Assembly (NCBI GenBank): GCA_002256025.1
Contig: NKIB01014434.1
Location: 1 to 43,485 of the forward strand
DNA length: 43,485 bases
Source: Asterionella formosa
Taxonomy: Eukaryota
Reading direction: 5' to 3'
Shown here piece by piece: positions 3,477 to 38,612 of this stretch (the stretch's first letter is position 1; each line of letters opens with the position of its first letter). The notes beneath the pieces were generated by a model. The model did not search any database, was not told where the DNA came from, and saw only the letters and a program-made list of their open reading frames with translations. The translations under genes were made by a program, and so were the position numbers.

Positions 3477-6400
3477 ATGACACTCAATCCTTCATACACC
3501 CCTAACCACCATGATGCTTCAATAGTGTCTGACGATGCCGTACAAGTTGAGCTCATCAAGAATGGACTCTGTCCTTATCATCCAGACATTCAGCTTCGCA
3601 ACAAGAAATGGAATGGAGGTTGGAAGACTTTGCGAGAGAGCTGCCCTAGATGCGATCACGAACGAATGAATACCCAAGGGCCTCCTGCTCTAACGACTGC
3701 AATGCCTCAGCAGCATCCTTCGCCAGAAACACAATCTCGGCCTTCAAACCAATTACCAACCACTTCAATTTCGTCTACGATTGCTGAAATTCTGTCAGAG
3801 ATGCAAAAGAATGAGCAGAATGCTGACATTCAAAAAGAAAGTTGTGTAGCTCTTTGGAGCTTGGCTGACAATAATGACAACGACAGGGTGGCGATTGCTG
3901 CAGGAGGTATCACTATGATTCTGTCTGCAATGAGGACTCATTCCTCCAACGCTGATGTGCAAGAGTATGGTTGTGCAGCACTATGGAACTTGGCTTATGA
4001 TGAAAACAACAAGGTGACAATTGCTGAAGCAGGAGGGATTGCTTTGATTCTGTCTACTATGGCTAATCATTCTTCCAATAAAAATGTGCAATACTATGGC
4101 TGCGCTGCACTTATGAACTTGGCTGTGAACGACAATAACCATGTGGCAATTGAGGCAGCAGTAGGCGTCACTACGATTCTGTCTGCAATGAAGACTCATT
4201 CCTCTAATGCTAATGTACAACACTATGGTTGTGCAGCACTTAAAAACTTGGCTGAGAAAAATGACGACAATCAAGTGACGATTGATGAAGCAGAAGGCAT
4301 CACTTTGATTCTGTCTGCGATGAAGAATCATTTCTCGAATGATAATGTGCAACACTACGGTTGTGCAGCACTTTGGAAGTTAGCTGCAAATAATACCAAC
4401 AATAAGGTGACGATTGCTGAAGCAGGAATTATCACTACGATTCTGTCTACGATGAAGAATTATTCCTCCAATGATGATGTTCAACACTATGGTTGTGCAG
4501 CACTTATGAACTTGGCTGAGAAGAATGACAACAATCAAGTGACGATTGCTGAAGCAGAAGGCATCACAACGATTTTATTTGCAATGAATAATCATTCCTC
4601 CAATGCTAATGTACAATACTATGGTTCTGGAGCACTTTGGAAATTGGCTGTTTTTAATGAAAAGAACAAGTTGAAGATTGCTGAAGAAGGAGGTATCACT
4701 ACAATTCTGTCTATTATGGATAATCATTCTACCAATGCTACTGTGCAAGAAAATTGTTTTAGAGCACTTACCAACTTGGCTGCGAATAATGAAAAAAACA
4801 AGATGACGATAACGGAAGCAGGAGGAATCACTACAATTCTGTCTGTGATGAAGACTCATTCCTCCAATGCTACTGTGCAGGAAAATGGTTGTTTAGCACT
4901 TAAAAACTTGGCTGAGAATAATGACAACAATCAAGTGATGCTTTGTGAAGCAGAACTCATCACTACGATTCTGTCTTCGATGAAGACTCATTACTTCAAT
5001 GCTACTGTGCAAGAAAATGGTTGTGGAGCACTACTTAACATGGCTGTGAATGACAACAACAAGGTGACGATTGCTGCAGCAGGAGGTATCCTTACAATTC
5101 TCTTTGTGATGAAGACTCATTCCTCCAATGCTATTGTGCAATGCTGTGGTTGCGGAGCACTTATGAACTTAGCTGAGAATGAAAACAACAAGGTGACGAT
5201 TGCTGAAGCAGAAGGTATTGCTTTGATTCTGTCTACTATGGCTAATCATTCTTCCAATAAAAATGTGCAATACTATGGTTGCGGAGCACTTATGAACTTG
5301 GCTGAGAATGACAACAACAAAGTCTTGATTGCTGAAGCAGGAGGTATCACTTTGATTCTGTCTGCAATGACGACTGATTCCTCCAATGCTAATGTGCAAT
5401 TCTATGGTTGCGGAGCACTTAAAAACTTGGCTGAGAATAATAAGAACAATCAAGTGACAATTGATGAAGCAGGAGGTATCAGAACGATTCTGTCTGGTAT
5501 GGATAATCATTCATCTAATGTTGATGTGCAAAAAAAACGGTTGTTTAGCACTTTGGAACTTGGCTTATAATGAAAACAACAAGGTGACGATTGCTGAAGC
5601 AGGAGGCATCACTACGATTCTGTCTGCGATGAATAACCATTCCTCGAATGCTTATGTTCAACAATATGGTTGTTTAGTAATTCAGAACTTGACTCGGAAT
5701 AAGAATAACAGGATGGTGATTGCTGCAGCAGGAGGGATCACTTCGATTCTGTCTACTATGAAAAACCATTCAAATAATGCTGACGTGCAATTCTTTAGTT
5801 GTGCAGCTCTTCGTAACTTAGCTTATGATAACAGCAACAAGTTGGCAATTGCCAAAGCTGGTGGAATAGAAGCAATTCAGGCTGCGATTCAAAATCATGC
5901 ATCCATTGTTTGCATTCAAGAAAGAGGTAATGCAGCACTTCGCATTTTGACTTCAACCCAAATTTCAACAACTACAATTTCGTCTCCAATTGCTGCGATT
6001 CTTTCAAAAATGCAAGAGAATGAACAGCATGCTGACATTCAAGACGATTGTCTCATGGTACTTGCGGACATGGCTTCTACTAACGAAAAAAACCAGGTGA
6101 CAATTGCTGAAGTAGGAGGGATCACTACGATTCTTTCTGTGATGAAGAATCATTTATCGAATGCTGATGTACAACTCTCTGGTTGTGTAGCACTTCAGAA
6201 CTTGGCTGTAAATAATGACAACAACAAGGTGGCGATTGCTGAAGCAAAAGGTATCACTACAATTTTGTCTGCCATGGAGACTCATTCCTCCAATGTTCAT
6301 GTACAACACTACGGTTGTGCAGCACTTAATAACTTGGCTGTGAATGATAACAATGAGGTGACAATCGCTGCAGCAGGGGGTATCACTAAGATTCTGTTTG

Positions 6401-7923
6401 CGATGAATAACCATTTTTCTAATGCTCACGTGCAACACTATGGTTGTGCAGCACTTCGAAACTTGGCTGTTAATGAAAACAACAAGGTGATAATTGCTGA
6501 AGCAGGAGGTATCACTACAATTCTGTCTGCAATGAGGACTCATTCCTCCAATGCTGAGTTGCAAGAGTATGGTTGTTTAGCACTTTGGAACTTGGCCATG
6601 AATGAAAACAACAAGTTGACGATTGCTGGAGCAGGAGGTATTGCTTTGATTCTGTCTACTATGGCTAATCATTCTTCCAATAAAAATGTGCAATACTATG
6701 GTTGCATTGCACTTATGAACTTGGCTGTAAATGACAACAACCATGTCACAATTGAGGCAGCAGTAGGTGTCACTACGATTCTGGGTGCGATGATGACTCA
6801 TTCCTCCAATGCTAATGTACAATACTACGGTTGTGTAGCACTTATGAACTTGGCTGAGAAGAATGACAACAATCAAGTGACGATTGCTGAAGGCATCACA
6901 ACGATTCTGTCTGCAATGAATAATCATTCCTCCAATGCTAATGTACAATGCTATGGTTGTGGAGCACTTTGGAAGTTGGCTGTTTTTAATGAAAAGAATA
7001 AGTTGAAGATCGCTGAAGCAGGAGGTATCACTACAATTCTGTCTAGTATGGATAATCATTCTTTAAATGCTTCTGTGCAAGAAAATGGTTGTGGAGCACT
7101 TACCAACTTGGCAGTGAATGACAACAACAAGATGGCGATTGCTGAAGCAGGAGGTGTCTTTACGATTTTGTCTGCAATGAATAATCATTCCTCCAATGCT
7201 GATGGGCAAGAGTGTGGTTGTGCAGCACTTTGGAACTTGGTCGTGAATGAAGAAAACAAGGTGACGATTGCTGAAGCAGGAGGAATCACCACGATTCTGT
7301 CTGCAATGAATAATCATCCCTTTATTGCTAATTTGCAATACTATGGTTGCGGAGCTCTTTTCAACTTGGCTGTCAATGACAACAATGAGGTCACAATTGC
7401 TGCCGAAGGAGGAATTATTACAATTCTATCTGCAATGAATAATCATTTTTCGAATGCTTTTGTGCAACACTATGGTTGTGCAGCACTTCGAAACTTGGCT
7501 GCAAATGACAACAACAAGGTGACAATTGCTAAAGCAGGAGGTATCACTGCAATTCTGTCTACTATGAATAATCATTCATCCAATGCTGATGTGCAACACT
7601 TTGGCTGTGGAGCGCTTTGGGACTTGTCTATTAATAATGATAACAATAGGGTGACGATTGCTGAAGCAGGAGGTATTGCTACAATTCTATGTGCGATGGA
7701 GACTCATTCCTTCAATGCTAATGTGCAACAAAAAGGTTGTGCTGCACTTGGCACCTTGGCTTTAAATAGTAGCAACAAGGTGTCGATTGCCAATGCTGGT
7801 GGAGAAGCCACAATTGAATCTGCTATTCGAAATCACCCGTCCAATGTTGCTGTCTATGAAATCGCTCATCAAGCACTTCGAATATTGACTGTTGTGGGAA
7901 ATGATCATTATGGTATTTTGTAA
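3477..7923 (+). CDS. ARM-repeat protein 1: putative Zn-binding N-terminal motif plus two capped solenoids (~17 + ~15 units), ~1481 aa if the extra A in the A8 run at 5530-5537 is removed
   Basis: ORFs 3384-5570 and 5461-7923 join into a normal unit (VQKNGCLALWNLA) on deleting one A. ATG 3477 is the start shared with the paralogues (an in-frame ATG at 3417 is an alternative). Consensus ITTILSAMxxHSSNANVQxxGCxALxNLAxNxNNKVTIAEAGG. Confidence 0.85.
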
Positions 7924-7959
7924 AAGGATAATCAGTTTGTGTTTTTTTGTTATACTCGG

Positions 7960-8170
7960 AAATGTACATTTATGCTCATTTATATTTATTTTCCCTGATT
8001 TGATACATACATTTGATGCTCTTAATGTACACTTGTTCATTTGCATTATACCAATACATAAGGATTCGTCATCATGGAGATAGACAGCACGCCGTCACCA
8101 CCTCACCTATACTGTTTCTAAGGCTAGCGTGTGGTTCAAGATAGCACTTCCATGCCCAAACACATGCGAC
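7960..8170 (+). repeat. Conserved 3' flank of the ARM gene family
   Basis: Block GATACATACAT..TGATGCTCTTAATGT..ATGGAGATAGACAGCACGCCGTCACCACCTCACC recurs at ~33600-33750 and ~38760-38940. Confidence 0.8.
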
Positions 8171-10557: not shown

Positions 10558-10571
10558 ATTATTGAACGACT

Positions 10572-10917: not shown

Positions 10918-11668
10918 GGGTTGCTGCAATGTTAATTGAATCCTCGACTCAAATAAAAGAACTCTGCAATACAGTTGAATGGTGAGTGTGTTTTTGTTGT
11001 GTATCTGAATGCTAGTATGGCTTGTCAGCTCACGCATTGTTGTTGATAACAGGCAGGGACAATGAGGTCCGGAATGAAAGTTGTTCTGGTAAGATTACTG
11101 CGCTATTTTGATGGCTATATGAGCAACAACACTACTGATAACTCACACTGATCTTCCTCTACATTCATTTGACATTGCAGCAAACCCTTTTAGTGCAGGA
11201 GCATGAGCAGGCTTTATTTTATTCATGAAACTCTTTAATTTAGTTGAATTACCTGCAGTAAAATAGTTGAACAACCTTCAGAAAAATAGTGGATTTGCCT
11301 TCAGATAATTAGTTGAACAACCTTGTGATAATTAGTTGAATGAACTCCAGAAAATTACGGAAACAAATTTTACATATTAAGTGAACTTTATTCTAGAATT
11401 ATGGGAACGAAATTATAAGGCAATGTGAACTAAAATTACATAATTACGTGAAGTATTTCAAATATAATTACGTGAAGGTGATGACGTAATATAGTGATGA
11501 TCAGGAATGCATGCATGATACTTTGATCAAATATTTAACGTGATGTATTCAGATAATATATATATTCAACTACGTATTTTGATGTATTCAACTTAATCAT
11601 GTGATGCATTCAAAATCAACTAGGCTTATTTATGTGATGGTCACTTCACGTAATACACGGCTTAGATG

Positions 11669-11963: not shown

Positions 11964-12303
11964 AGTATGGCATATGAACGGATTCTGGATTCTCCCCTGT
12001 GGTACACTCGTGTGTGGAATATATTGACTGTAGCCTGTTCATATTTGACCTACGTAAATGTCAAAGTGTCCGGTAAAACTAAAATGCAACTCATCAGCTT
12101 AATTTCTTTAAGTCTGTATAGAATACATAAATACATGTGCAACTACCGGTAGTGTATAATGCTTGCACATACAAACAAAACGTTAGATGATGGACACGGT
12201 GTGACAGAAATAATTAAGAGATTGCTTGTTCAGAATTGAGAAAAAGGCGTTTCCTTACGCGTGCGATAAAACAACCAATGCAATCAACGAGAACAAAGCA
12301 TAC

Positions 12304-15300
12304 ATGACACTCAATCCTTCATTCGCCCCTACCAACAACGATGCTCCAATAGTGTCTGACAGTGCCATACAAGTTGAGTTCATCAGGAATGGACTATGTC
12401 CTTATCATCCAGACATTCAGCTTCGCAAAAAGAAATGGAATGGAGTTTGGAAGATTTTGCGAGAGAGCTGCCCTAGATGCGATCAAAAACAAATGAATAC
12501 CCGAGGGCCTCCTGCTCTAACGACTCCAATGCCTCAGCAGCATCTTTCGCCAGAAACAAAATCTCAGCCTTCAACACAAATTGAAACCACTGCAATTTCG
12601 TCTACGATTGCTGAAATTCTGTCAGAGATGCAAAAGAATGAGCAGAATGCTGACATTCAAAAAGAAAGTTGTGTAGCACTTTGGAAATTGGCTGACAATA
12701 ATGAAAACGACAGGGTGACGATTGCTGCTGCAGGAGGTATCACTATGATTCTGTCTGCTATGAGGACTCATTCCTCCAACGCTGATGTGCAAGAGTATGG
12801 TTGTGCAGCACTATGGAACTTGGCTTATAATGAAAACAACAAGGTGACAATTGCTGAAGCAGGAGGGATTGCTTTGATTCTGTCTACAATGGATAATCAT
12901 TCTTCCAATGATAATTTGCAATACTATAGTTGTGCATCAATTTGGAAATTAGCTGCGAATAATGCCAAAAACAAGGGGACGATTGCTGGAGCAGGAGGTA
13001 TCACTACGATTCTGTCTGCGATGAAGACTCATTCCTCCAATGCTACTGTGCAATACTGTGGTTGTGGAGCACTTAGTAAATTGGCTAAAAATAATGACAA
13101 CAACAAGGTGACGATTGTCGAAGCAGGAGGTATCACTTTGATTCTGTCTGCGATGAAGAATCATTTATCAAATGTTCATGTACAACACTACGGTTGTGCT
13201 GCACTTTGGATTTTAGCTGCGAAAAATGAAAACAACAGGGTGTTGATTTCTGAAGTAGGAGGTATCACTACTATTCTGTCTGCGATGAAGACTCATTCTT
13301 CCAATGATACTGTACAACACTATGGTTGTGCAGCACTTTTGAACTTGGCTGAGAAAAATGACAACAATCAAGTGACGATTGCTGAAGCAGAAGGCATCAC
13401 AACGATTTTATCTGCAATGAATAATCATTCCTCCAATGCTAATGTACAACACTACGGTTGTGCAGCACTTAATAACTTGGCTGTGAATGATAACAATGAG
13501 GTGACAATCGCTGCAGCAGGGGGTATCACTAAGATTCTGTTTGCGATGAATAACCATTTTTCTAATGCTCATGTGCAACACTATGGTTGTGCAGCACTTC
13601 AAAACTTGGCTTATAATGAAAACAACAAGGTGACGATTGCTGAAGCAGGAGGTATCACTACGATTCTGTCTGCGATGAACAATCATTTATCGAATCTTAA
13701 TGTTCAACAATATGGTTGTTTAGCATTTCAGAACTTGGCTCAGAATGACAACTACAGGGTGGTAATCGCTGCAGCAGGAGGGATCATTTCGATCCTGTCT
13801 GCTATGAAAAATCATTCATATAATGCTGACGTGCAATACTATGGTTGTACAGCTCTTCGTAACTTGGCTTATAATAACCACAACAAGGTGGCAATTGCCA
13901 TAGCTGGTGGAATCGACGCAATTCAGGCTGCGATTCAAAATCATGCATCCAATGTTCGTGTTCAAGAAGGAGGAAATGGAGCACTTCTCATATTGACTCA
14001 AACCCAAATTTCAACCACTTCAATTTCGTCTCCGATTGCTGCGATTCTTTCAAAAATGCAAGAGAATGAGCAGCATGCTGCCATTCAAAGAAAGTGTCTC
14101 ATTAAACTTGCAGAAATGGCTTTTACTAATGAAAACTACCAAGAGACGATTGCTGCAGTAGGAGGTGTCACTGCGATTCTGTCTACTATGGATAATCATT
14201 CATCCAATGCTGATGTGCAAGAAAACGGTTGTGTAGCACTTCAGAACTTGGCTATAAATAATGACAACAACAAGGTGGCAATTGCTAAAGCAAAAGGTAT
14301 CACTACAATTCTATCAGCGATGAAAAATCATTTGTCCAATGCTAATGTGCAATACTATGGTTGTGGAGCACTTCTAACCTTTGCTGTGAATGACAAAATT
14401 GAGGTAACAATTGCTGCATCAGGAGGTATCACTGCAATTCTGTCTGCTATGAGTAATCATTCATCAAATGCTATGGTACAACACTATGGTTGTGCAGCAC
14501 TTCGGAACTTGGCTGTGAATGACAACAACAAGGTGGCGATTGCTGAAGCAGGAGGTATCACTACGATTTTGTCTGCGATGAAGACTCATTATTGCAATGC
14601 TGACATACAAGAATATGGTTGTGGAGCATTTTTTAACTTGGCTGTGAATGAAAACAACAAGGGGATGATTGCTGAAGCAGCAGGTATCACTTTGATACTG
14701 TCTGCGATGAATATTCATTCCTCTAATGCTAATGTGCAATACTATGGTTGCGGAGCACTTATGAACTTGGCTGAGAATGACAACAGCAAGGTGTTGATTG
14801 CTGAAACAGGAGGTATCACATTGATTCTTTCTGCAATGAAGAATCATTTATCAAATGCTAATGTGCAACACCATGGTTTTGCAGCACTTCGGAACTTGGC
14901 TGTGAATGACAACAATGAGGTGACAAGTGATTCAGCAGGAGCTATCACAACGATCTTGTCCACGATGGATAATCATTCATCCAATGCTGATGTGCAACAC
15001 TATTGTTGTGGACTACTTTGGAACTTGGCTTATAAAAATAAAAATGACAAGGTGGCAATTGCTGAATCAGGAGGTATCACTAAAATTTTGTCTGGGATGA
15101 AGAGACATCCTAAACATGCTAAGGTGCAACAATATGGTTGTGGAGCACTTGGGAACTTGGCTTTTAATAATGACAACAATAAGGTGACGATTGTTGAAGC
15201 AGAAGGTATCAGTCAGATTCTGTTGGCGATGAAGACTCATTCATCCAATGCCAATGTGCAACAATTCGGTTTTAGAGCACTCCGGAATTTGGCTAATGAT

Positions 15301-15570
15301 AATGACAACCACAGGGTGAGGATTGTTGAAGCAGGAGGTATCACTGTGATTCTATCTGCAATGGAGACTCATTCCTCCAATGCTAATGTGCAACATAATG
15401 GTTGTGCAGCACTTGGCACCTTGGCTACCAATAATGAAAACAGAGTGGCGATTGCCAATGCCGGTGGAAAGGTCACAATTGAGTCTGCTATTCGAAATCA
15501 CCCATCCAATGCTGTCGTCTATGAAAAAGCCCATGAAGCACTTCGCATATTGACCCAAATTGGGAAATGA
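12304..15570 (+). CDS. ARM-repeat protein 2 (intact, 1088 aa): putative Zn-binding motif plus two capped solenoids (~11 + ~12 units)
   Basis: Uninterrupted ORF. The first ATG is 12304 (the track start 12226 is TTG) and is homologous to ATG 3477. Same architecture as gene 1. Confidence 0.92.
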   Translation: MTLNPSFAPTNNDAPIVSDSAIQVEFIRNGLCPYHPDIQLRKKKWNGVWKILRESCPRCDQKQMNTRGPPALTTPMPQQHLSPETKSQPSTQIETTAISSTIAEILSEMQKNEQNADIQKESCVALWKLADNNENDRVTIAAAGGITMILSAMRTHSSNADVQEYGCAALWNLAYNENNKVTIAEAGGIALILSTMDNHSSNDNLQYYSCASIWKLAANNAKNKGTIAGAGGITTILSAMKTHSSNATVQYCGCGALSKLAKNNDNNKVTIVEAGGITLILSAMKNHLSNVHVQHYGCAALWILAAKNENNRVLISEVGGITTILSAMKTHSSNDTVQHYGCAALLNLAEKNDNNQVTIAEAEGITTILSAMNNHSSNANVQHYGCAALNNLAVNDNNEVTIAAAGGITKILFAMNNHFSNAHVQHYGCAALQNLAYNENNKVTIAEAGGITTILSAMNNHLSNLNVQQYGCLAFQNLAQNDNYRVVIAAAGGIISILSAMKNHSYNADVQYYGCTALRNLAYNNHNKVAIAIAGGIDAIQAAIQNHASNVRVQEGGNGALLILTQTQISTTSISSPIAAILSKMQENEQHAAIQRKCLIKLAEMAFTNENYQETIAAVGGVTAILSTMDNHSSNADVQENGCVALQNLAINNDNNKVAIAKAKGITTILSAMKNHLSNANVQYYGCGALLTFAVNDKIEVTIAASGGITAILSAMSNHSSNAMVQHYGCAALRNLAVNDNNKVAIAEAGGITTILSAMKTHYCNADIQEYGCGAFFNLAVNENNKGMIAEAAGITLILSAMNIHSSNANVQYYGCGALMNLAENDNSKVLIAETGGITLILSAMKNHLSNANVQHHGFAALRNLAVNDNNEVTSDSAGAITTILSTMDNHSSNADVQHYCCGLLWNLAYKNKNDKVAIAESGGITKILSGMKRHPKHAKVQQYGCGALGNLAFNNDNNKVTIVEAEGISQILLAMKTHSSNANVQQFGFRALRNLANDNDNHRVRIVEAGGITVILSAMETHSSNANVQHNGCAALGTLATNNENRVAIANAGGKVTIESAIRNHPSNAVVYEKAHEALRILTQIGK

Positions 15571-15676: not shown

Positions 15677-15897
15677 TGTACATACGACTAATTCTCCTAT
15701 CAAACAGGCAACGGGGAGAATACTGAACCTAATGTTGTAATTAGCGCTATTGAAGGGTACCACATAAAAAAGAAGAAGTGATCACAGAGCATTATCCAAC
15801 ACAACTTGTTGGATGGGAAAACTCGACATATTCCAGACAAGGATTACCCACTCAAGGATGATCAAAATGCACGCTGGTCCTACAGGCGGTAGGACCA
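15677..15897 (-). repeat. 3' LTR, left part (continues at 20069-20161)
   Basis: Matches ~33244-33463 and is interrupted at ...GGACCA by the TIR element. Confidence 0.9.
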
Positions 15898-18800
15898 CGT
15901 CTGCAAATAAAAACCATCATATTTCCATGATGCATCATGGGATTATGATCATCTGATCATAATTTTTCTTTATATCATCTAATAATTATGATAACCCTTT
16001 TGACTACCGGTATGGAAATTTAATTATTATATGTATTGTTTCTTTTAGGTTCCTTTATTTAAATTTCTCGGTAGGATAATGTACCAGTTTGAGTAATGTG
16101 GTTTGGCTCATCATCCTCGCCAGTCCTCACTCTGATTCTTGCAACAACGACAAACCAGCCTTGTCAAGAGGAACGAGTGTTTGTGATAAAATCTTCATTT
16201 GTCGTTCAAGTCCTCATATGTCTTCGATGAATCATCATCTACATTGTACAGTATGTTCGTACTACTATGCAATCTGTTAAGAGCTTGAAAAGAAATCCAA
16301 TGAAAACGAAATGGCTCATCACACAAGACGAATATTTCTGGCCGGTCTGTCACTGGAGCATTGGTCAGTGTTACAACCTCAATCATAGCTAAACAACATC
16401 CATTATAGAACAGCACAATCTAATTCTCCGTAACATTGTCTCTCTAACAAGAACGTAATACATCTAGAATTGAAACGCAGCATAGCAGGCGATATGCACA
16501 AAGAAGCATGAGACTGTCTATTTATTGTAACAGAGTGATTCTGGTTTTGTAATTTTCATGTCTCATTAGATTTTCTTTGTCATCGTTCTAGTTCCGTACC
16601 TTTAAAGACAGGAGCGTATTCTTTGATGTATCTGGATTATTTCAATGGATGGCAGCAGTTGTTATTAGGGTATTAGACACAAACCTTGACAAAAGCACTA
16701 GTACCTTGTAGATGATCATGAAAAGCGAGACACTTTGCTTGGCCTATCGCCCACCAGCCAGTCTATAACTGCAAAAATGCAAGAAGCAAGCACAAGTTGA
16801 ATACCCATTTATGGATTCAAGTTTCAGTAGTTCAACAATATAAAATATTAGAAACCGGAAGTCACATTTCATCTAATTACGGTTTTCATTAGCTATACTA
16901 GTATTGATTGAGAGGAAGCAATAGGAGAATGGCTGCCAAACGGGCGGGGGCAAACACAGAGAATCCTACAACTAATTTTTCTTCCCAATGATCCCAGTCC
17001 CTTGTTGAATGTCACTTGCTACAGAAAATGTAGAACAGCCGCCATGATCTGTTGATTGTTGCTTTATGGTGCCACTGACCGAGACCTCCAGAAATCTCAA
17101 TGAGTTGCTTGTCTCTTGACTTGAATGCAAAAGGGATCGAAACCAGCGGAAAAATCAAAAGGGAACTAAAAATGCTCTGCAAACATCAGGACAATGGTGA
17201 AATAGAAATGAAGGTTCTTGGGAGGAGAAGTAAAGGAATAATTGCTTCTGGTCTTGCGGGAACAAGAATAGATTGACCCAAAAAATGTTGACAAATAGGT
17301 ACCTACGGGAAAAGGAAGCAATGCTTTCAGCATCATCAATCTATACACAAACCTGCACCACCTGATGTCATCAATATAGCTACATCGACTTCGTCAATGA
17401 AGAAGTCAATGGGTGGAGCATGTGAGGAAAATCGGGGTTGAGGTTTTCTTGACGCCAACGTGGACCTGATTGGCTGAACTCCTTGCAGATGAAGGCATTG
17501 AGTAACCTGGGTCTGTGAAGCCAAAGGATAAAGAAAAATCTATGACAAGGGTGGTGAGATAGTGTTTAGGAAAGGGGAAGAAAAGGTTTTCATAGCTGAA
17601 CGCATTCGAAGCTTGTATAGACAATAAATGGTGGAATACCATGGCTGCTCTTGGCTGACAGCTGCCAAGTCAAGTACAAACACAACGAGGGTGCACAAAA
17701 GACAGTCCAATTTTAATTGACTGGCTGATACTTAGTTGTGAGACTCACCATTCTGCAATGGGGTGGACTTTGATCATTTCTTCGTTCAAAGCACAATCAA
17801 TTCGAATGCTGTCCAGTGAAACAGCCAATGAAAACAATTGTGGCGAAAAATCGCAGAACAGATCAAGAGATTTCATAGGAATTAAAATAACAACAGCAGG
17901 GCATATATGATGTGCTGCTCCTTGTTTCGACTAGCTATCTATGATTATTTCCATATTTCATACTACACAGGTGCATGGATGACTCCTCCCTTTCATTAGA
18001 TATGCAGCCATGTTGCGTTAATTCTACAGGACCTATAGGATTTTTAGTCTGGTGGTCATCATTTCTGCATTGTCTATACCAGTAGGAGTCACCAGCCATG
18101 TATACATGCATGCTGCGATAATTCTTTCAAGACATGAAATTTTGGTAGCTTGGGGGTTATCACTTCCATACTGTATACAGGGGGAAGGGGTTGCATGCAT
18201 GAGCAACTACTCCGGTATAAAATATGATCTTTAATCGATGATTCTTGATTCATTTATCCTATAAATTTGATCATAATATATTGATCATATGATGAACAGT
18301 GTCCTTGATGAGAAAATGAATGATCAACATTTATTTTCAAGAATCAGGATTAATTGATCTTAAAAATATGATCAAATGATCCTAAACACATGAGCATATT
18401 AAGTTTTCTGCTGCACTTTTGTGATATTTCCATGATGGAAGTAATACCCAGCAATTATACAGTACTACCGGTAGGCCACATGAATTTTGGTCAATATGAT
18501 TTCGACCATTTGAAAAATTGGTGATGACTCCAGTTTATGAAGGGGCATAATTAAATCAGCCACTGACTTGTAGGTACAAGAAATGACACAAAAAAAGTTG
18601 AAAAAACTCAACAGGTCGTGGAAAACTATGAACTCATTATGCATTTTATATATTTGAATTATGTATAATCAAATTAAAATTAGTATAAACAGGATGTGCC
18701 GTATAATGAGCGTGTTTCAAACTATGCAAATGTTCAACTATGTATACATTTAAACTTCTTACAAATCTTTATATATATGTATTCATGGCTGAAACATTTG

Positions 18801-20388: not shown

Positions 20389-22329
20389 TTAATCTAAAAC
20401 ACTCCTGGCAAAATGATAAACTGGCACTCCAGTGAGTCTTTTCGTTAAACCATCAGAGCAGTTAGCCTTACCAGAATCATGTGCAACACGCGCTGACCCA
20501 TATGCACAAGCCTCACGACACTTGTGATAAGCAATTGCATTATGCCTTTTATTCAACGTTGACTCAGGCCTAGTAACATCTCGCGTTGTCTCCAAACATA
20601 TTTGCGGCACCATCAATGGGCACTCCCATCATGTGTAAATCATTCATTTCAATAGCAATTTTCATCGCCACAAAGTCACTCCCAAAAGTTGACATTTTGA
20701 CAGTATTTTGCTGTTTGGAATACCACCTCTCAGCAACACCATTTAAGAATATCAATACCCCTGTTGTCGATCTACGGGGAGCAAGGCAAGTCGCATGTGC
20801 AGCATCACAAAAGATGTTGATTTGTACCTCTTTCCCAAGACCCTCTGGTGCACCTGTTGGAATCAACTCAACATCATCAGGGTAAAATTCTTTCCAATCA
20901 GCACCACCATGATACCAATCGACTGTATTCCAATCCCTATTTCCCTTTTACATAACCAAATATGCGGAGCACTGCCTCCATGTGTCCTTCACAAGGAGCA
21001 TTCCTAAATCTCGACATGAGCGCCACCAAATGCATCAAATCAATTCATGCTAACTCAGTCACCCATTGCAGGATTCCAATATAACTAGCTTACAAGGATG
21101 GATCATCCTCACTCAATAGGGGGCTGACATCAATCTCAGGATGGTATCCAGCTGGTAAGGGTGAGGACGCCTTTCGGCATAATTTTTGATCCCAAGCTTC
21201 CTCCTCAATAGTCAGAATAGCATTAGTGTGGTAATCCTCTGCTGACATGGACCATGCCAATGACCCATCACCAAATTGATACTGGCCAACCATTACGCCT
21301 ACATAGCGACAAGGTGCGGTTCCTGGATCTTCAACAACCTTAAGTGTAAAGTAACAAGCTAATTCCTTGACTAACTCATCAGCTGCCGCTGAAATGAGCA
21401 TAACATTGTCAACGTAGACCAATGCATATTCATAGTATGCTGAGCCATCCACTTTTGTTGCTTTCCTCAACCACAGATCTGGATCAGCCTCACAAGTATG
21501 GAAATGCATATAATCACGTAACACAGAAGCCAGATGTAACCGGAAGGCGGCACCAGCAGACTTCAGAACTTAAAGAGCACAAATGATCTTCAGCAAACAA
21601 CTTTTCAGCGGGCCAAATTCGTCCCCTGCCACAACATAAAAATGCTCTTTCACAGGCGCTGTCAAATAAGCATTCCCCCAATGTCTGTCAGCCGTAGATT
21701 TAATCCATTTTGACCGGCAACCAACAAGGCAACAATGCGAATTGTCTCCCTAGAAGCGACACTTGAATATGTGATTGCCTTTGGGGGGTCAGTCCTATGA
21801 CCTCCTGCCACATACCTAGACTTGCGCGTGAAGTCCAACTTGACATCCCAGATTATATGTCCCGGAATCTTCTTGTATCCAGGAACATGGGTTGCCTTTT
21901 CTGGCCGAACTTCAAAAGCTATCATCACTGCAGACATCTCCTTGCGGAGAGCAGCCATCCATCCAAAGTATATTAACATTTTCATGGTCCAACCTTGCTG
22001 CATCAGGAAAGCTAGAACTTGGCATTTGAACAACAATTGTAAAACTAGCTCGGTGGTATGGTCTACTCTGTGTTGCCTTGATGATTCGTTTCATGCGTTT
22101 TAAGACCATTGGAACCCACCAAAAAAAGCAGGATTGATTTCGATTTGGTTCGCTTTGGCATATTCAGCAAGTTCAATCGGATTTGTTTCCTTCAGAGTCT
22201 TTAATGGGAGCCAGGATGTAGATCCGTCCCTCCATTCGACTTCTAGATCCCACCCAGTTGTTGTCTTCTTCTTGTTATAATTTTTCCCGTTTTGCGGAAA
22301 TTATTGATCACTCTTCTCCACAGCCTTCC
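20389..22329 (-). pseudogene. Copia pol remnant (RT + RNase H)
   Basis: GYKKIPGHIIWDVKLDFTRKSRYVAGGH, YSSVASRETIRI, LTDIG, EADPDLWLR, YYEYALVYVDNVM, FCDAAHA..RRSTTG, STFGSDFVAMK and KRHNAIAYHKCRE, with frameshifts. Confidence 0.93.
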
Positions 22330-32006: not shown

Positions 32007-32830
32007 CTGAGAAGATGCTCTGCCAATATATTGTATGCGATTTGCTGTTGCTCACCATCTAAGAATTCGACCTCAAAAACCCTGGAATCTAACCTCGGAA
32101 ACCTTTGCTTTCGCCCAACCAGGTTCCCGTTCACATCCTACTTTCGTTTAATGACCACCGCAATCATATCGCCCTCCTTGTGTGGAAGTACGACCTGAGC
32201 GTTAATGTCGGGAGTCTCACCCATCATCACTTCATATGGAGATCGACCCTTGAGTGCATGTCTACACATGAGCTGACGGATGTTGGAGGTATATTCCGCT
32301 GCAAAACACCATAGCATGTCTGGACATCTGTATCTATTCATGATACGACGCCAATGCGTCTTGAATTGTCCGATCTTGCTCTCAGCTCTGTTCATCCAGT
32401 CATCACTTCACATAGAGATCGACCCTCAAGTGCAGGTATAGACCTGAGCTGACAGATGTTGGAGGTATATTCTGCTGCAAAACACCATAGCATGCCTGGA
32501 CATCTGTATCTATTCATGATACGACCCCAATGTGTCTTGAATTTTCCGATCTCGCTCTCAGCTCTGTTCATCCAGGGATTGTGAGGCTCTGTTGTTGTGC
32601 AAGGAACCAAATGGGTCTTCTGGACTCTCTTGAACTCTGTGAAGTCTCATGTTTCCACAGCTGCATTTTCAGAGTGGAAACCTAGTTCTGGAATTCCATA
32701 TTGCCGGATGGCTTCAATGAATCTATCCCCACAATCTGCTTCAGAGCGCATTGGATACACCTTGGCCCAACACTGATCATGACAGAAAAGTTGTGCTCAT
32801 GTGCGTCCCCTCACTGACTTCACCTTGTCC
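32007..32830 (-). pseudogene. Copia integrase remnant with a 176-bp tandem duplication (32224-32399 / 32400-32575)
   Basis: KVYPMRSE, YGIPE, TEPHNPWMNRAESEI, LWCFAAEY and GRSPYEVMMGETPDI. The block MNRAES..EVM is present twice. Confidence 0.92.
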
Positions 32831-33243: not shown

Positions 33244-33568
33244 TGATAAACCGACTAATTCTCCAATCAAACAGGCGATGGGGAGAATACTGAACCTAAT
33301 GTTGTAATTAGCGCTATCGAAGGGTACCACATAAAAAAGAAGAAGTGATCACAGAGCAATATCCAACAAAACTTGTTGGATGGGAAATCTCGACAAATTC
33401 CAGACAAAGATTACCCACTCAAGGATGACCAAAATGCACGCTGGTCCTACAGGCGGTAGTACCAGGCGCCTTCATGTCATAAGACAGACCTCACAGCACA
33501 CTGCACCTAATGGTTTTCCCTGTTGAGCATACGCCCGAGAAAACCTGAGGTATACCCAGAATTTACCA
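33244..33568 (-). repeat. 5' LTR, 325 bp
   Basis: Bounded by TGATAAA...TTTACCA (TG..CA, imperfect 7-bp inverted ends) and homologous to the two other LTR copies. Confidence 0.9.
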
Positions 33569-36500
33569 TGTTATTTATGTGATTCTAATTGAACTTTTCC
33601 TGATTGATACATACATGTTGATGCTCTTAATGTAAGCTCGTTCATTTTCATTACATCAATACAAAAGGATCCATCATTATGGAGATGGACAGCTCACCAT
33701 CACCACCTCACCTCGACGGCTCTTAAACAAGTACTCTCATGCCCAATCACTTTTCAGGCTAGATTTTTGGTAGGCAACTCGACATTATAACATTGACAAT
33801 GAATAATGATAATAAAACCGACAATAATATCACACAATACAAGAACAAGGAGAGCACGCTTGATCCAGCCTTGTCAATACTATACCAGTGTACAAGAAAC
33901 CAAAACATTCATCATTAGTGTTGTATTCTTATAAAATATATATTATTGTAGGGTGCTCGCAGATGTCACAAAATCAGGTTTTTTTGTTGACAGAAAACCT
34001 GGAAACTGTTTCAATTTCATTACGATAAATCTCGTGTTGCCAAAGCAACGATGGCGATCACCGTTTTCTTCCTACCATATCAATCATATCATCATTGCTT
34101 AGTGGGTGAGCTATTGTAATGGCTGGTAGTCGACTTGTGTGTACCCTTAGTGAATATCCATATTTTTAGATATTATAGCGCATTGACTCAATTCAGGTGA
34201 GTCAAAGGACGAGAAAACTACTGGGGAAAGAATGTATAGACAAGATTTAGATAAAAATTCCGGTAGTATAAATGAAATAAATAGTGCTTTGCTGCACTGG
34301 TACCTGGTACCGGTATTACCGGTAGTCTAGTTTACCCGCACCACTGCAATTGTTTCATGATGTGGCTCACTTGTTATCGCTGGTGGTACGTGGTACTGGT
34401 GCAAGTATAAAACTGCTGACACCAGGTCAATGTAAACCTATGGAAGAAAAAATTTCAAAGGATGATTATGAATCTGTAATTTCCAACACTGATTGGAATT
34501 CAGACAAGCCGATCGCATATAGTGTACTTAATCAATATTGATCAGCCATCCTAGATTTGCATGCACAGTAACGGGATGGAGGATGCAGCAACATACCCAA
34601 GGGTGTATTAATGTCTTGCCATGTCAAAAGCTTGCTTAAGACAGTAAAAATGAGAAAGACGCAAATTGCGAAAAGCAGTTTCGATGAAAAATTGATAAGT
34701 GAATTCACACCATACACTGCTGCTGCTCAAGATTTTTCCAAGACTTGAAGGTTTGACATCTTCACCATCAACCATTGAGATGACCGCAGTTAAGCAAGGT
34801 AAAACCTACAGTTGAATTTGAATTGACAGCTAAACCTGCATACAGGGATCATATTCCACAAACCACAGTTGGAACCATTACTGAAGCAATTGAAGTAGCC
34901 AAAGTTGCCAAAGTTGATGATGCCAACAATTCTGCATTGATGACAACCGGTATGTGTGATGTGTGTGCTGACATCATTCAATTGCATCAATGTATCATCT
35001 CTTACAAAAAATCACATATCAGGCTATCAAGTTGCAGGTGAGCAAGGAACAATATGTTCTAATTGTCTTGTCAAAAGTAAAAGACGTCGAATCGGATAAA
35101 TATAATTTAGATGAATTAAAAGGAGATATATTTTATTATACACCAAATAGAATATAGAAAGAAATCTGAATCCCACTCAGGAGCTTTGAAAAATGGAAAC
35201 TGTGCCATTTCTACCTTTAAATAGCATTTTAGCTTAAAGTCATTCACTTGTACATTTTGGTAGTCTCAATAATCAAAAATCCTTCAGTATCAAATTTGCA
35301 TTTTTATTTACAGTCATTGCATGCCAAGTCATTCTACAGTCATCTACAATATTTTTGATTTCTTTAAGATTTGATGCTAACTTTGATGATGTGCTTTTCC
35401 TCTCAAAAAATAGTTTATTTGTTCCTTGTAATTTCGGGAGAGGAATATAACTTTATAAACAGCTCAAAGAAAGATGTTGTAATAGCAAGTATGCATGAGA
35501 AAAGAAGCAATCCTGGATGTCCTTGCAGGAATGGTCAATGACAGCAGATGCAGCAATGATTTTTTTGTACTGCTTGGCATTGCGGCTGATGCAAAGCCCA
35601 GCAATTTTCCGGAAGACAATACATCAACAAGTACAGGCTTGTCTCCTCCTCCACTAGTGGTCAATTGATTGAACCTATCCATTGAAAAACTTTCATATGC
35701 CAAGATTCCACCAGAGAGAGCAGCTGACATCTCCAGACACTTCATAAACCCTCTGGAAATTGATTCCTTTACCTCTGAAGGTAACAGTAGTAAAATTCAA
35801 TATTCACAAAGCATTATCTTCGTTAGCAAAGTTTGCAGTGGTAGAAAATGATGGAGCATCAGAAGTCCACGTTGCCGGAAAGCTGCATGGTAAAACTCAA
35901 TCAAAAGATGCATTTAAGAATAGCCCTCTTTCATGGCGATCTGATTGGGAACAGATGCTTGTGCAATGTCAGGAATCTCTGCACATCAGGAGGAGCCCCC
36001 ATGGAAATACTACAAATGTTGGAACAATGCTGTTCAGCATTCCTTGTCCATCATTTTTTTCATGCTCCTATAGTTTGGCAAGCCCCACGGCAGATTCAAT
36101 TGAAGAAAATTCAGCTGTGCAGTGTGTCCATGCAATGTGGAACCCGGTTTCAGGTTTATTTTCAAAATAGTACCATTTCGCATGCATCATGATGAAAGGA
36201 TATCATGTCCTCCTCTGTCCTTCTAGGATTCAGAGCAGCCGCCATGCGATGATGAGCAGTCACAAAACCACTTTGTATGTCATAATTATCAACCAATTTT
36301 CATCGATTGACAGGCCTGACAACCTTTGTGTCATACTAGTCTGCAACGGAAAGGTTCATGTTTGCAATCTTGTGGAGCATCTATAGCGAAGTGCCAAAAA
36401 GGCCAACGTTTCTTGCATTTGTATTTGAATGTGCATTCAAAAAGATACAACAAAGGATAACATGAACACGACGTGGTTGTGTAGCAACAACGCAACGACG

Positions 36501-37375: not shown

Positions 37376-38612
37376 ATGGCGATTTTCAGATACGTCCTTA
37401 CCCGCCTTAATGATCCAATGACAATTATGAATGAGTATGACGTACAAGCTGAGCTCATTAAGAATGGATTCTGTCCTTATCATCCAGACATGCTGCTTCG
37501 CAAAAAGAATTTGTTTGGAGTTCGGACGACTTTGCGAGACAGCTGCCCTCGTTGCGATCATAATCGTATAAATACCAAAGGATCTACTGCCTCTTCAATT
37601 GCGTCTACGATTGCTACAACTCTTTCCGAGATGAAAATGAATGAGCTTAATGCTGACATTCAAAAAGAAGGTCTCTTGGAGCTTGCTCAATTGGCAACCA
37701 GTTGCCGATTGCTGAAGAAGGAGGTATCACTTTGATTCTATCTGCTATGAAGATTCATTCCTCCAATGCTAACGTGCAAGCATATGGTTGTGAAGCACTT
37801 AATGACTTGGCTGTGAACAAAAATAACAAGTTGACGATTGCTAAAGAAGTAGGTATCAATACGATTCTGTCTGCAATGAAGACTCATTGCTCCAATTCTG
37901 ATGTGCAAGCATATGGTTGTGCATCACTTTTGAACTTGGCTTTGCATGACAACAACCAGGTGACAATTGTTGCAGCAGGTGGTATTTTTACAATTCTGTC
38001 TGTGATGAAGATTCATTCCTCTAATGCCAATGTGCAACGCTGTGGCTGTGGAGCACTTAATAACTTGGCAGACAATCATGACAACAACAGCGTGACGATT
38101 GCTGCAGCAGGAGGAATCAATACAATTCTTTCTGTGATGGAGACTAATTCCTTCAATGCTAATGTGCAAGCATATGGTTATGCAGCACTTTTTACCTTAG
38201 CTGAGAATAATGAAAAGAGCAAGGTGATGATTGCTGCAGCAGGAGGTATCCTTACGATTCTGTCTGTGATGAAGACTCATTCCTCTAATGCTAGTGTGCA
38301 ACACTTTGGTTGTGGAGCACTTATGAACTTGGCTTTGAATAACAACAACAAGGTGGCAATTGAGGCAGCAGGAGGTATCAGTAGTACAATTTTGTCTGTA
38401 ATGAAGACTCACTCCTCCAATGCTAATGTGCAATACTATGGTTGCGGAGCACTTCAGAGCTTGGCTTTGAATAATGACAACAAAAGGTGGCAATTTCCAA
38501 TGCTGATGGAAAAGTCGCAATTGAGTCTGCTAAGCGAAATCATGCTTTCAATGCCAGTGTGCATGACAATGGTAATGGAGCACTTCGCACATTGAACCAA
38601 CATCAGAAATAG
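37376..38612 (+). pseudogene. ARM-repeat paralogue 3, single solenoid (~8 units), two frameshifts
   Basis: GFCPYHPD..CPRCD motif and N-cap, a deletion/frameshift at ~37700, six internal units, a frameshift at ~38485, then C-cap ..GALRTLNQHQK* ending at 38612. Confidence 0.88.

What the first reader, a model, noticed from the sequence alone, without database searches (positions are those of the whole stretch)
3477..38612. Cluster of hypervariable ARM-repeat genes resembling a combinatorial receptor repertoire
Seen: four co-oriented intronless paralogues (the fourth is the fragment at 196-781) with ~32, ~23 and ~8 units in the three 5'-complete copies, conserved N-terminus and caps, reshuffled internal units and several pseudogenes in a TE-rich block. 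Established: high-identity repeat arrays with birth-and-death turnover characterise non-self receptors such as fungal NLR WD40/TPR/ankyrin arrays and brown algal ROCO LRR genes. Inference: this may be an undescribed ARM-based recognition or immune family in a diatom-like host.
Basis: partly seen in the sequence, partly recalled or inferred. Interest (0 to 1): 0.85.

Follow-up and report, generated by a model that had tools for sequence, protein, structure and literature searches.

The report
Fast-evolving armadillo-repeat gene cluster in diatom
A freshwater diatom-like alga carries a tandem cluster of genes built from dozens of shuffled armadillo repeats whose predicted ligand-touching residues vary faster than silent sites, which points to a diversifying family of binding proteins, although nothing yet ties it to immunity.

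Summary
Four co-oriented armadillo (ARM) repeat loci lie on the + strand. c2 (12304-15570) is intact: 1088 aa, 23 units. c1 (3477-7923) has 32 units and one frameshift in an A8 run. c3 (37376-38618, 8 units) and c4 (152-778, a 3' fragment) are pseudogenes. All 5'-complete copies share a ~60-aa Cys/His module that matches no Pfam family, then a linker, then one or two cap-delimited ARM arrays. Units average 73% nt and 64% aa identity. Mosaic tracts of 95-99% identity move between genes and between modules. Two unit positions (39, 43) carry more nonsynonymous than synonymous diversity (family-wise P<=0.0025 in a neutral simulation). Positions 32, 36 and 39 align with Vac8 residues that contact Atg13. 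Contigs from RNA libraries match c2 exactly. Differences from other samples are mostly synonymous (11 of 17). Best reading: an intact, probably transcribed diatom family of intracellular peptide-binding solenoids that diversifies by unit shuffling. The immune reading is untested and fails NLR membership: no NOD domain, and internal identity is below the 85% used for fungal NLRs. The "TE-rich" claim is only partly supported.

The parts
152..778 (+). c4: 5'-truncated pseudogene fragment, the last ~4.5 ARM units plus the C-cap
   Evidence: tblastn interval in frames 2 and 3. Five unit-HMM hits at 197-766. In-frame stop in the cap unit 647-766.
3477..7923 (+). c1: CHCC head + linker + two cap-delimited ARM modules (17 + 15 = 32 units), with a single frameshift
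   Evidence: ORFs 3417-5570 and 5464-7923 overlap. 32 units. MTLNPS start and N-terminus conserved with c2.
5530..5537 (+). A8 homopolymer where the c1 frame shifts; either a real lesion or an assembly error, not resolved
   Evidence: Frame comparison and position of the run.
12304..15570 (+). c2: intact 1088-aa gene, 23 units
   Evidence: Single ORF. Pfam Arm 94.9 bits and ARM_LRRK2 218.9 bits. Contigs from RNA libraries match with 0-1 differences.
12304..12513 (+). c2 N-terminal CHCC (Cys32, His35, Cys56, Cys59) putative zinc module; no Pfam family
   Evidence: C32 invariant, C56 and C59 in >=90% of 25 aligned sequences, H35 in 21 of 25 rows by my count of the printed alignment. 179 library representatives at E<=0.001. 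AF2 pLDDT 87-94 for residues 20-60.
12592..14001 (+). c2 ARM module A: N-cap, 9 internal units, C-cap
   Evidence: Unit HMM hits. PDB sequence match to Vac8, E 8e-33. Foldseek gives ARM solenoids.
14035..15558 (+). c2 ARM module B: N-cap, 10 internal units, C-cap
   Evidence: Unit HMM hits. A second 'ISSPIAAILSKMQENEQ' N-cap is seen in the translation.
37376..38618 (+). c3: single-module copy (8 units) with at least two frameshifts; pseudogene
   Evidence: Frames 1, 2 and 3 are all used. Its first ORF, with the same out-of-frame tail, recurs as P0087 on 3 other contigs, 1 of 119 residues different.
12227..12303 (+). Conserved proximal upstream stretch shared with c1 (3400-3476)
   Evidence: The last 100 nt upstream of the c1 and c2 ATGs are 74% identical, against 59% over 300 nt.
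33588..33945 (+). Orphan copy of the 3' flank of the ARM genes, with no gene body
   Evidence: 70% identical to 38747-39128 (downstream of c3). 33595-33713 is 86% identical to 7990-8108 (downstream of c1).
15685..15905 (.). Dispersed repeat; further copies at 11669-11966, 33252-33571 and 20067-20141
   Evidence: Self-blastn, 83-95% identity.
21093..21569 (-). ORF resembling copia-type reverse-transcriptase fragments (a lead only)
   Evidence: ESM Atlas scores 0.95-0.96 to clusters in which 17-22% of members carry RVT_2. No Pfam hit.

Best explanation
This is a tandem birth-and-death cluster of a diatom-specific gene family. The proteins have no evident signal peptide (by inspection only). They carry a small basic Cys-His-Cys-Cys head, probably zinc-binding, then a Pro/Ser/Thr/Gln-rich linker, then one or two capped armadillo solenoids of 8 to 32 near-consensus 43-44-residue units. 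Shown: the architecture, unit shuffling within and between paralogues, the pseudogene states, and an excess of nonsynonymous diversity at unit positions 39 and 43. Also shown: variable positions 32, 36 and 39, and the conserved Asn40, align with Vac8 residues that contact the extended Atg13 peptide. Inferred: each unit gives Asn40 to hold a ligand's backbone and variable helix-3 residues (29/32/33/36/39/43) to read its side chains. An array would then bind an extended peptide segment of a partner protein. Unequal crossing-over and short gene-conversion tracts would generate new specificities. The head, or in some relatives a C-terminal kinase-like or an inserted TAZ domain, would couple binding to localisation or signalling. 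The ligands and the cellular process are unknown.
For: Architecture and unit counts. ARM identity: Pfam Arm 94.9 bits (cut-off 20.6) and ARM_LRRK2 E 1.4e-64; PDB Vac8 E 8e-33, then ODAD2, beta-catenin and LRRK2; 161 Foldseek matches at E<=0.001, the listed ones ARM or ARM-like solenoids. Concerted evolution: mean synonymous difference between units is only 0.31-0.34, with shared codons (for example ATT in 46 of 49 units at position 17). Mosaic tracts of 81-184 nt at 93-99% identity occur, including between modules. Site pattern: among 49 internal units the highest entropy is at positions 39, 43, 32, 29, 22 and 36. The entropy has a helical moment of 0.55 on helix 3 (permutation P<1e-4), and the same top positions (39, 43, 29) appear in 72 units from 42 close database relatives. 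Selection: per-site pN is 0.65 (position 39) and 0.61 (position 43) against a global pS of 0.36. In four neutral simulations of 400 replicates each, the top and second ranks were reached in 0 to 2 replicates. In 17 independent sister pairs, positions 39+43 give pN 0.417 against pS 0.198, Fisher P 3.4e-5. Ligand surface: all 10 Vac8 residues named as Atg13 contacts in PMC7469494 (passages read) map through the HMMER alignment to unit positions 5, 32, 33, 36, 39 and 40. Function retained: c2 is an open 1088-codon frame. 17 differences to contigs of other samples split 11 synonymous to 6 nonsynonymous (pN/pS 0.16, binomial P 2e-4). Transcription hint: contigs from a polyA RNA library and a metatranscriptome match c2 with 0-1 differences over 149-160 nt, and one runs 77 nt past the stop codon. 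Head: 179 representatives at E<=0.001, often 2-4 copies per protein, in named diatoms. Relatives with other parts: P0232 carries zf-TAZ at E 2.3e-17, and P0223 has a weak kinase start.
Against: No ligand, localisation or phenotype is known. The ARM model has low confidence (mean pLDDT 58). The groove assignment therefore rests on sequence alignment to Vac8 and on helix geometry. Positions 43, 29 and 22 are not among the Vac8 contacts listed. Overall pN/pS among units is high (0.6), and the non-variable positions still give 0.51. Between c1 and c2 the head and linker differ by 31 nonsynonymous against 4 synonymous changes (ratio ~2.2, P 0.05-0.10). Much of the cluster may therefore be under relaxed constraint. 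Only one of four copies is certainly intact. The site test assumes one tree for units that recombine, and it used pairwise counts rather than a codon-model likelihood test. The SNP contigs could come from very recent paralogues rather than alleles. Contigs from RNA libraries do not prove transcription.
Confidence: 0.6

Rival explanations
1. Non-self recognition repertoire. The arrays would be intracellular sensors of viral, chytrid or bacterial molecules, or of mating or allorecognition cues. They would diversify under an arms race, and the head or partner proteins would act as the output.
For: Position-specific excess of nonsynonymous change on the predicted binding face. Unit shuffling and paralogues with 8, 23 and 32 units. 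Pseudogenes in a tandem cluster. Many distinct short contigs at least 95% like c2 in each run laid, for example 1364 laid of 437,982 records in the polyA run. ARM arrays of the same type sit next to TIR_2 (P0281, 28.2 bits) or DUF4062 (Salpingoeca P0224, 28.1 bits) in other protists, and next to an LRR array in L001. Fungal NLR repeats show the same trio of concerted evolution, repeat shuffling and selection on the binding surface (PMC4986451, passages read).
Against: No NOD, TIR, death-fold or other known immune signalling domain in c1-c3. Unit identity of 63-64% aa is below the 85% criterion. c2-like sequence from other samples differs mainly at synonymous sites, and pieces of up to 328 nt are identical in a run from another study. 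No expression data under infection. Repeat-number polymorphism between strains could not be tested.
Confidence: 0.17
2. A decaying or neutrally drifting repeat-gene cluster with no current function. Its apparent hypervariability would only reflect unconstrained surface residues.
For: Two of four copies are dead and a third has a frameshift. pN/pS is 0.6 among units and at least 1 in the head and linker between c1 and c2. The neighbourhood is rich in dispersed repeats.
Against: c2 keeps 1088 codons open. Differences to other samples are skewed to synonymous sites (P 2e-4). Scaffold positions are strongly conserved: 4 invariant and 12 nearly invariant of 43. Positions 39 and 43 exceed the neutral expectation rather than merely reaching it. 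RNA-library contigs match c2 exactly.
Confidence: 0.1
3. A modular nucleic-acid-binding solenoid in the manner of PUF, TALE or PPR proteins, with one unit reading one base through the variable positions.
For: Near-identical tandem units with a few variable 'code' positions per unit. The head is basic, pI 9.3.
Against: The arrays are neutral to slightly acidic (pI 6.3 and 6.8). Matches are to peptide-binding ARM proteins, not to PUF or PPR families. The Asn ladder typical of peptide-binding ARM grooves is conserved (N40 in 78% of units).
Confidence: 0.05

Closest known systems
Fungal NLR repeat domains with high internal conservation (Podospora HNWD/NWD WD40, and ANK and TPR NLRs)
   Same: Tandem superstructure-forming repeats that are exchanged within and between paralogues, differ in number between copies, and show excess amino-acid change at a few positions on the ligand-binding surface (PMC4986451, passages read; here).
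   Different: No NACHT or NB-ARC domain and no known effector head. The repeat type is ARM, which those passages do not list (they name WD, ANK and TPR, and HEAT in one Podospora set). Internal identity is 63-64% aa, not >=85%. Allelic repeat-number polymorphism is not shown.
Vac8 (yeast vacuolar ARM protein), the closest solved structure by sequence
   Same: Canonical ARM units, E 8e-33. Partners bind as extended loops in the inner groove (PMC10161063 and PMC7469494, passages read). The contact residues align with the variable positions 32/33/36/39 and with Asn40.
   Different: Those papers describe Vac8 as having 12 ARMs and as the only ARM protein of budding yeast. Here there are 8-32 near-consensus units, often as two capped modules, in a multi-copy, pseudogene-bearing, lineage-specific family with a different N-terminus. 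c2 starts MTLNPS and so lacks a Gly2 acylation site (the acylation rule is recalled).
Designed armadillo repeat proteins (modular peptide binders)
   Same: Identical or near-identical internal units between caps. Side-chain pockets are formed by helix-3 residues of neighbouring repeats, so specificity can be changed pocket by pocket (PMC11228518, passages read).
   Different: Those are engineered. The register between their numbering and the unit here is recalled, not tested: no designed ArmRP chain reached E<=0.01 with the unit profile.
LRRK2 ARM domain (PF23744)
   Same: Best Pfam family (E 1.4e-64) and best PDB match of the unit profile (E 1.4e-8).
   Different: No Roc-COR, kinase, SAM or TIR domains in c1-c3. 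Any regulatory or sensor role is recalled from the literature, not tested here.
Seminavis robusta 'ARM' protein (P0007) and the unnamed metagenome protein P0017
   Same: The same CHCC head motif (C..HP.I.LRK..W...CPRCD) followed by a long linker and ARM repeats.
   Different: 36% (P0007) and 29% (P0017) identity to c2, with much more divergent units and longer linkers. Annotated only as ARM, hypothetical or unnamed.

Membership tests
Armadillo-repeat superfamily (Pfam Arm PF00514 and relatives) | Tandem ~42-residue repeats that match the Arm profile | tested here: met
   PF00514 at 94.9 bits against a cut-off of 20.6, and PF23744 at 218.9 bits. 69 unit hits with a 43-44 residue period.
Armadillo-repeat superfamily (Pfam Arm PF00514 and relatives) | Three-helix units stacked into a superhelix | tested here: inconclusive
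   The AF2 single-sequence model has mean pLDDT 58. H2 and H3 are predicted periodically but H1 poorly. Foldseek still returns 161 matches at E<=0.001, the listed ones ARM or ARM-like solenoids, at TM 0.29-0.47.
Armadillo-repeat superfamily (Pfam Arm PF00514 and relatives) | Conserved helix-3 asparagine lining the ligand groove | tested here: met
   N40 occurs in 38 of 49 units. It aligns with Vac8 Asn152 and Asn193, which bond to Atg13.
NLR / STAND receptors (including fungal NLRs with highly conserved repeats) | Central NACHT or NB-ARC NTPase domain | tested here: not met
   Pfam scans of c1, c2 and c3 list only ARM-type and chance families.
NLR / STAND receptors (including fungal NLRs with highly conserved repeats) | Repeats at least 85% identical (aa) over at least 100 residues | tested here: not met
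   Mean unit identity is 0.63-0.64, range 0.37-0.95. Criterion taken from PMC4986451.
NLR / STAND receptors (including fungal NLRs with highly conserved repeats) | Concerted evolution with repeat exchange within and between paralogues | tested here: met
   Mosaic tracts at 93-99% identity, some non-colinear. Unit tree with intermixed c1, c2 and c3 units.
NLR / STAND receptors (including fungal NLRs with highly conserved repeats) | Positive selection at binding-surface positions | tested here: met
   Positions 39 and 43, by pairwise counts and simulation rather than a likelihood codon model.
NLR / STAND receptors (including fungal NLRs with highly conserved repeats) | Repeat-number polymorphism between individuals | not testable with these tools
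   Only short contigs of public runs were available (longest listed piece 353 nt).
Brown-algal ROCO-LRR / NB-ARC-TPR families | Roc-COR or NB-ARC domain, with one repeat per exon (features recalled) | tested here: not met
   No such Pfam domains. The c2 array is one uninterrupted ORF.
PUF / PPR / TALE-type nucleic-acid code solenoids | Family profile match and a basic binding surface | tested here: not met
   No PUF or PPR Pfam hit. Array pI is 6.3 and 6.8.
Diatom CHCC-head proteins (unnamed module) | C-x2-H ... C-x2-C module with the HP.I.LRKK..GGW core | tested here: met
   C32 invariant, C56 and C59 at >=90%, H35 in 21 of 25 rows by my count. phmmer finds 179 representatives at E<=0.001 and 37 at E<=1e-10. 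Members named from Cyclotella, Stephanocyclus and Thalassiosira.

The most novel reading that the evidence does not exclude
Diatoms possess a recognition repertoire without a NOD domain, built on armadillo arrays. It would be a natural counterpart of engineered modular peptide binders. Shuffled units with variable helix-3 pocket residues would create many peptide specificities. Interchangeable partner domains (CHCC zinc head, LRR array, TAZ finger, kinase) would link recognition of parasite, viral or mating-partner proteins to a response.
Probability: 0.15. Interest if true: 0.85.

Novelty: new variant of a known kind. Interest (0 to 1): 0.55.

Why it matters
To my knowledge (recalled, not searched) no family of variable intracellular receptors is established for diatoms, although they face intense pressure from viruses, chytrids and bacteria. 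This cluster shows that ARM solenoids can evolve in the mode known from fungal NLR repeats: unit shuffling, copy-number change, and selection on the binding face. The fungal NLR passages I read do not list ARM as a repeat type. Here that mode is joined to a diatom-specific, uncharacterised Cys/His head. Whether the role is defence, mating or ordinary regulation, the family gives a concrete, testable set of natural 'programmable' peptide-binding modules. It also flags a widespread diatom domain that matched no Pfam family here.

Tried and rejected
(1) Likelihood and ancestral-state site tests. The script machine does not offer ancestral sequences, so I used pairwise and sister-pair counts and forward simulation instead. 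SLAC, FEL and PAML-type tests remain undone.

(2) Fold of the CHCC head. Foldseek against the PDB gave no match at E<=0.001 and VIA-align wide gave no match at Z>=2. ESM Atlas gave only sub-0.9 zinc-ribbon leads. A zinc-ribbon or treble-clef assignment stays a guess.

(3) TE content. Of 109 non-ARM ORFs, the only Pfam hit at E<=0.001 was a below-threshold phage XtrA match. None of 7 re-scanned at E<=5 gave a TE family.

(4) Related loci. One scan of metagenome contigs gave a single locus, L001, so no orthologous arrays were found for comparison. The window's genome is not held. Earlier scan findings: three look-ups, nothing.

(5) Near-identical database proteins. Among the 314 proteins fetched, none is at least 80% identical over at least 50 aa to the c1 frames, the whole c2 protein or the c3 array. 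The c1 frameshift therefore could not be checked.

(6) Read laying. The flanks 11900-12173 and 15599-15872 have no or almost no depth in the two RNA-library runs, although the DNA runs cover them. Bins 13681-13954 lack RNA contigs. Absence of cover in contigs proves nothing and is not used as evidence.

(7) Joints between non-adjacent units (for example 12669 to 14505 in X2, X6 and X16, side 25-30 nt, 14 foreign letters between). They may be other paralogues or graph artefacts in repeats, and are not used. Depths were not used to rank anything.

(8) Register with designed ArmRPs. No such chain matched the unit profile, so the register is not claimed as tested.

(9) P0223's kinase. Pkinase scores 18.3 bits, below the 31.7 cut-off, and covers only the first 51 profile positions. 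It is a lead only.

Full report
**What is in the window.** The 43.5-kb window is about 39% G+C. No whole genome is held for it.

Tandem Repeats Finder reports arrays of 129-132 nt units at four places:
- 3841-7790, 30.4 copies
- 12668-15427, 21.2 copies
- 37695-38489, 6.1 copies
- 270-649, 2.9 copies of a 135-nt unit

tblastn with the longest ORF marks exactly four intervals, all on + frames: 152-778, 3477-7917, 12304-15567 and 37409-38618. I built a 43-position unit HMM from the intact gene. It gives 69 hits, none on the minus strand. The counts are 32 units in c1 (one split by a frameshift), 23 in c2, 8 in c3 and 5 in c4 (the first partial).

**State of each copy.**
- c2 (12304-15570) is one open frame of 1088 codons.
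- c1 (3477-7923) is open except for one frame change inside an A8 run at 5530-5537. One A fewer would restore a perfect unit. I could not tell a real lesion from a homopolymer error.
- c3 (37376-38618) needs three frames. Its first ORF, including the out-of-frame tail, recurs with 1 of 119 residues changed as database protein P0087, seen on 3 other contigs. That frameshift is therefore real.
- c4 (152-778) is a 3' fragment with frame changes and an in-frame stop.

**Architecture.** The 5'-complete copies begin with a conserved ~60-residue module holding Cys32-x2-His35 and Cys56-x2-Cys59. In 25 aligned sequences C32 is invariant, C56 and C59 are present in at least 90%, and H35 is present in 21 of 25 rows by my count of the printed alignment. 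A Pro/Ser/Thr/Gln-rich linker follows, then ARM arrays bounded by recognisable N- and C-caps.

c1 and c2 each hold two complete cap-to-cap modules: 17+15 units in c1 and 11+12 in c2. c3 holds one.

Pfam assigns the arrays to Arm (94.9 bits, cut-off 20.6), ARM_LRRK2 (E 1.4e-64) and related ARM families. It assigns nothing to the head. The closest solved proteins by sequence are Vac8 (E 8e-33), ODAD2/ARMC4, beta-catenin and LRRK2. The unit profile alone hits the LRRK2 ARM domain best (E 1.4e-8).

A single-sequence AlphaFold model of c2 module A is poor (mean pLDDT 58). It still retrieves ARM or ARM-like solenoids among the listed rows, with 161 matches at E<=0.001.

**The head.** The head model is confident for residues 20-60 (pLDDT 87-94). 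It shows a helix, a beta-hairpin and a second helix. It has no PDB fold match.

**Whose genome.** The best named ARM relatives are Seminavis robusta proteins. One of them, P0007, and the unnamed protein P0017 carry the same head. phmmer finds the head in 179 library representatives at E<=0.001, often in 2-4 copies per protein. Of 42 scanned, 38 have no Pfam family at E<=1e-4. Named members come from Cyclotella cf. meneghiniana, Stephanocyclus meneghinianus and Thalassiosira pseudonana.

Runs that hold half or more of the words sampled from 11900-16000, where labelled, are labelled algae or freshwater metagenomes. A run labelled freshwater, from another study, holds pieces of up to 328 nt with no difference. 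The host is therefore a freshwater diatom or a close relative.

**How the arrays evolve.** I extracted 60 units. Of these, 57 are exactly 129 nt; I dropped three of 123, 126 and 132 nt. Their mean pairwise nucleotide identity is 0.73, and best matches reach 0.80-0.97. Amino-acid identity averages 0.63-0.64.

Mean synonymous difference between units is only 0.31-0.34. Conserved residues use the same codon in most units, for example ATT in 46 of 49 and CAA in 48 of 49. The units are therefore young or homogenised, not merely constrained.

The first six units of c1 and c2 are colinear. c1 then carries extra units. High-stringency alignment shows short mosaic tracts:
- c1 6299-6468 (module B) against c2 13442-13611 (module A), 98.8% identity
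- within c1, 4000-4099 against 6602-6701, 96.0% identity
- within c1, 4580-4730 against 6912-7062, 95.4% identity
- within c1, 5177-5282 against 6600-6705, 97.2% identity

The unit tree intermixes units of all three copies. This is unit shuffling by unequal exchange and short conversion tracts.

**Where the variation sits.** Among 49 internal units (caps, c4 and the frameshifted unit left out), 4 positions are invariant. The most variable positions are 39, 43, 32, 29, 22 and 36. On the predicted helix 3 (unit positions 28-43, from the DSSP) these fall within one 80-degree arc. The helical moment of the entropy is 0.55 (permutation P<1e-4).

72 distinct units from 42 close database relatives give the same top positions: 39, 43, 29 (Spearman 0.76 with the window's units). 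A distant ARM-kinase, P0001, does not have position 39 among its top eight.

The Vac8-Atg13 paper names ten Vac8 contact residues: Tyr226, Tyr227, Leu192, Ala107, Val103, Lys160, Asn152, Asn193, Asn186 and Asn145 (PMC7469494, passages read). With a chain offset of 9, which all ten residue identities confirm, the HMMER alignment places them at unit positions 32, 33, 39, 36, 32, 5, 40, 40, 33 and 33.

Variable positions 32, 36 and 39, and the conserved Asn40, thus correspond to ligand-contacting residues of the nearest solved relative. That relative binds extended peptides in its inner groove. Positions 43, 29 and 22 are not in that list. Positions 43 and 29 share the helix face.

**Selection.** In 17 independent sister pairs of units, overall pN/pS is 0.63. 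It is 1.16 for the helix-3 face (29, 32, 36, 39, 43) and 0.51 for the remaining 34 positions. For positions 39+43, pN is 0.417 against a global pS of 0.198 (Fisher P 3.4e-5).

Over all pairs of 53 units, per-site pN is 0.65 (position 39) and 0.61 (position 43) against pS 0.36. I simulated neutral codon evolution (omega 1 at all 43 codons) on the estimated tree, scaled to the observed pS. I ran four parameter sets of 400 replicates each. The observed top value was reached in 0-2 replicates, and the second in 0-1. The third (position 32) was reached in 1-6 of 400 at the matched scale, but in 64 of 400 when the tree was lengthened.

Caveats:
- The units recombine, so a single tree is an approximation.
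- The tree comes from the same data.
- Ancestral-state and likelihood codon tests were not available.

**Signs of function and of decay.** Seventeen differences between c2 and contigs of other samples split 11 synonymous to 6 nonsynonymous (pN/pS 0.16, P 2e-4). This indicates purifying selection on c2-like sequence. It also argues against strain-level hypervariability of this copy. Some of these contigs could be recent paralogues.

Contigs from a polyA RNA library and from a metatranscriptome match c2 with 0-1 differences over 149-160 nt. One extends 77 nt beyond the stop codon. This is a hint of transcription, not proof.

Against this, the head and linker of c1 and c2 differ by 31 nonsynonymous and 4 synonymous changes (ratio about 2.2, P 0.05-0.10). 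Scaffold positions give pN/pS near 0.5. Three of four copies carry lesions.

**Relatives with other parts.**
- P0229 is a complete 207-aa mini-member: head, N-cap, one unit and C-cap.
- P0223 has the head, an ARM module and the first ~50 residues of a kinase-like domain. The match is 18.3 bits, below Pfam's cut-off.
- P0232 has a TAZ zinc finger between ARM units, E 2.3e-17.
- The metagenome locus L001 encodes an LRR-like array (by eye, not scanned) joined to the family's N-cap and ARM units.
- More distant ARM arrays of the same Pfam type sit beside TIR_2 (P0281) or DUF4062 (Salpingoeca P0224).

**Surroundings.** Self-comparison shows the following:
- A dispersed repeat with copies at 11669-11966, 15685-15905, 33252-33571 and 20067-20141.
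- An orphan copy of the genes' 3' flank at 33588-33945.
- 95% identity between window 1-195 and 11478-11668, which lies upstream of c2.

One ORF (21093-21569, minus strand) resembles clusters that partly carry the copia-type RT family (Atlas 0.95-0.96). Pfam finds no informative match in any of 109 non-ARM ORFs. 'TE-rich' is therefore plausible but only weakly shown.

**Comparison with what is known.** The evolutionary mode matches the highly internally conserved repeats of fungal NLRs: concerted evolution, shuffling, and selection on the binding surface (PMC4986451, passages read). Membership fails on two counts. There is no NOD domain, and unit identity is 63-64% rather than at least 85%.

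Mechanistically the nearest models are Vac8-type peptide-binding grooves and designed armadillo repeat binders. In the latter, helix-3 pockets of neighbouring repeats set side-chain specificity (PMC11228518, passages read).

Four literature searches returned no description of such a diatom ARM family. The library does not hold most subscription journals, so this is not proof of absence.

**Verdict.** The best reading (confidence about 0.6) is a diatom-specific family of intracellular ARM-solenoid peptide binders with a novel Cys/His head. At least one member is intact and probably transcribed. The family diversifies by unit shuffling, with diversity-enhancing selection at two or three groove positions. 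An immune or other non-self role (about 0.17) is neither excluded nor supported by any direct evidence.

Noticed in passing
L001:1-2117: A metagenome contig encodes an array that looks like ribonuclease-inhibitor-type leucine-rich repeats (by eye, no Pfam scan). It is joined through a similar linker to the family's N-cap (ISSQIAAILSEMQKNEQNADI) and to ARM units. This would be an LRR-ARM member of the family. The ARM part is split over several ORFs.
   Followed up: partly
window:12304-12513 and database proteins P0075, P0077, P0123: The CHCC head is a widespread diatom module that matches no Pfam family. It is often repeated 2-4 times in proteins whose C-termini look like MORN repeats (by eye). 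38 of 42 such proteins scanned had no Pfam family at E<=1e-4.
   Followed up: partly
window:1-195 and 11478-11668: The sequence directly upstream of the truncated c4 fragment is 95% identical to a stretch 640-830 nt upstream of c2. c4 may therefore have arisen by a deletion from the upstream region into the array.
   Followed up: no
window:33588-33945: An orphan copy of the 3' flank shared by c1 and c3, preceded by a dispersed repeat (33252-33571). It may be the remnant of a fifth, deleted gene copy.
   Followed up: no
window:10572-10919, 30569-31033, 32217-32575: Minisatellite-like tandem repeats of 173, 115 and 176 nt (2-4 copies, 86-96% matches) in the intergenic regions.
   Followed up: no
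window:15873-16000: Summed contig depth in the DNA runs is very high here (264,250 in X2, against hundreds to thousands in most neighbouring bins). This suggests a high-copy repeat just downstream of c2.
   Followed up: no
window:39182-39586 (- strand): A 134-aa ORF with a hydrophobic N-terminal segment and no Pfam match lies downstream of c3. It may be an unrelated small membrane protein gene.
   Followed up: no
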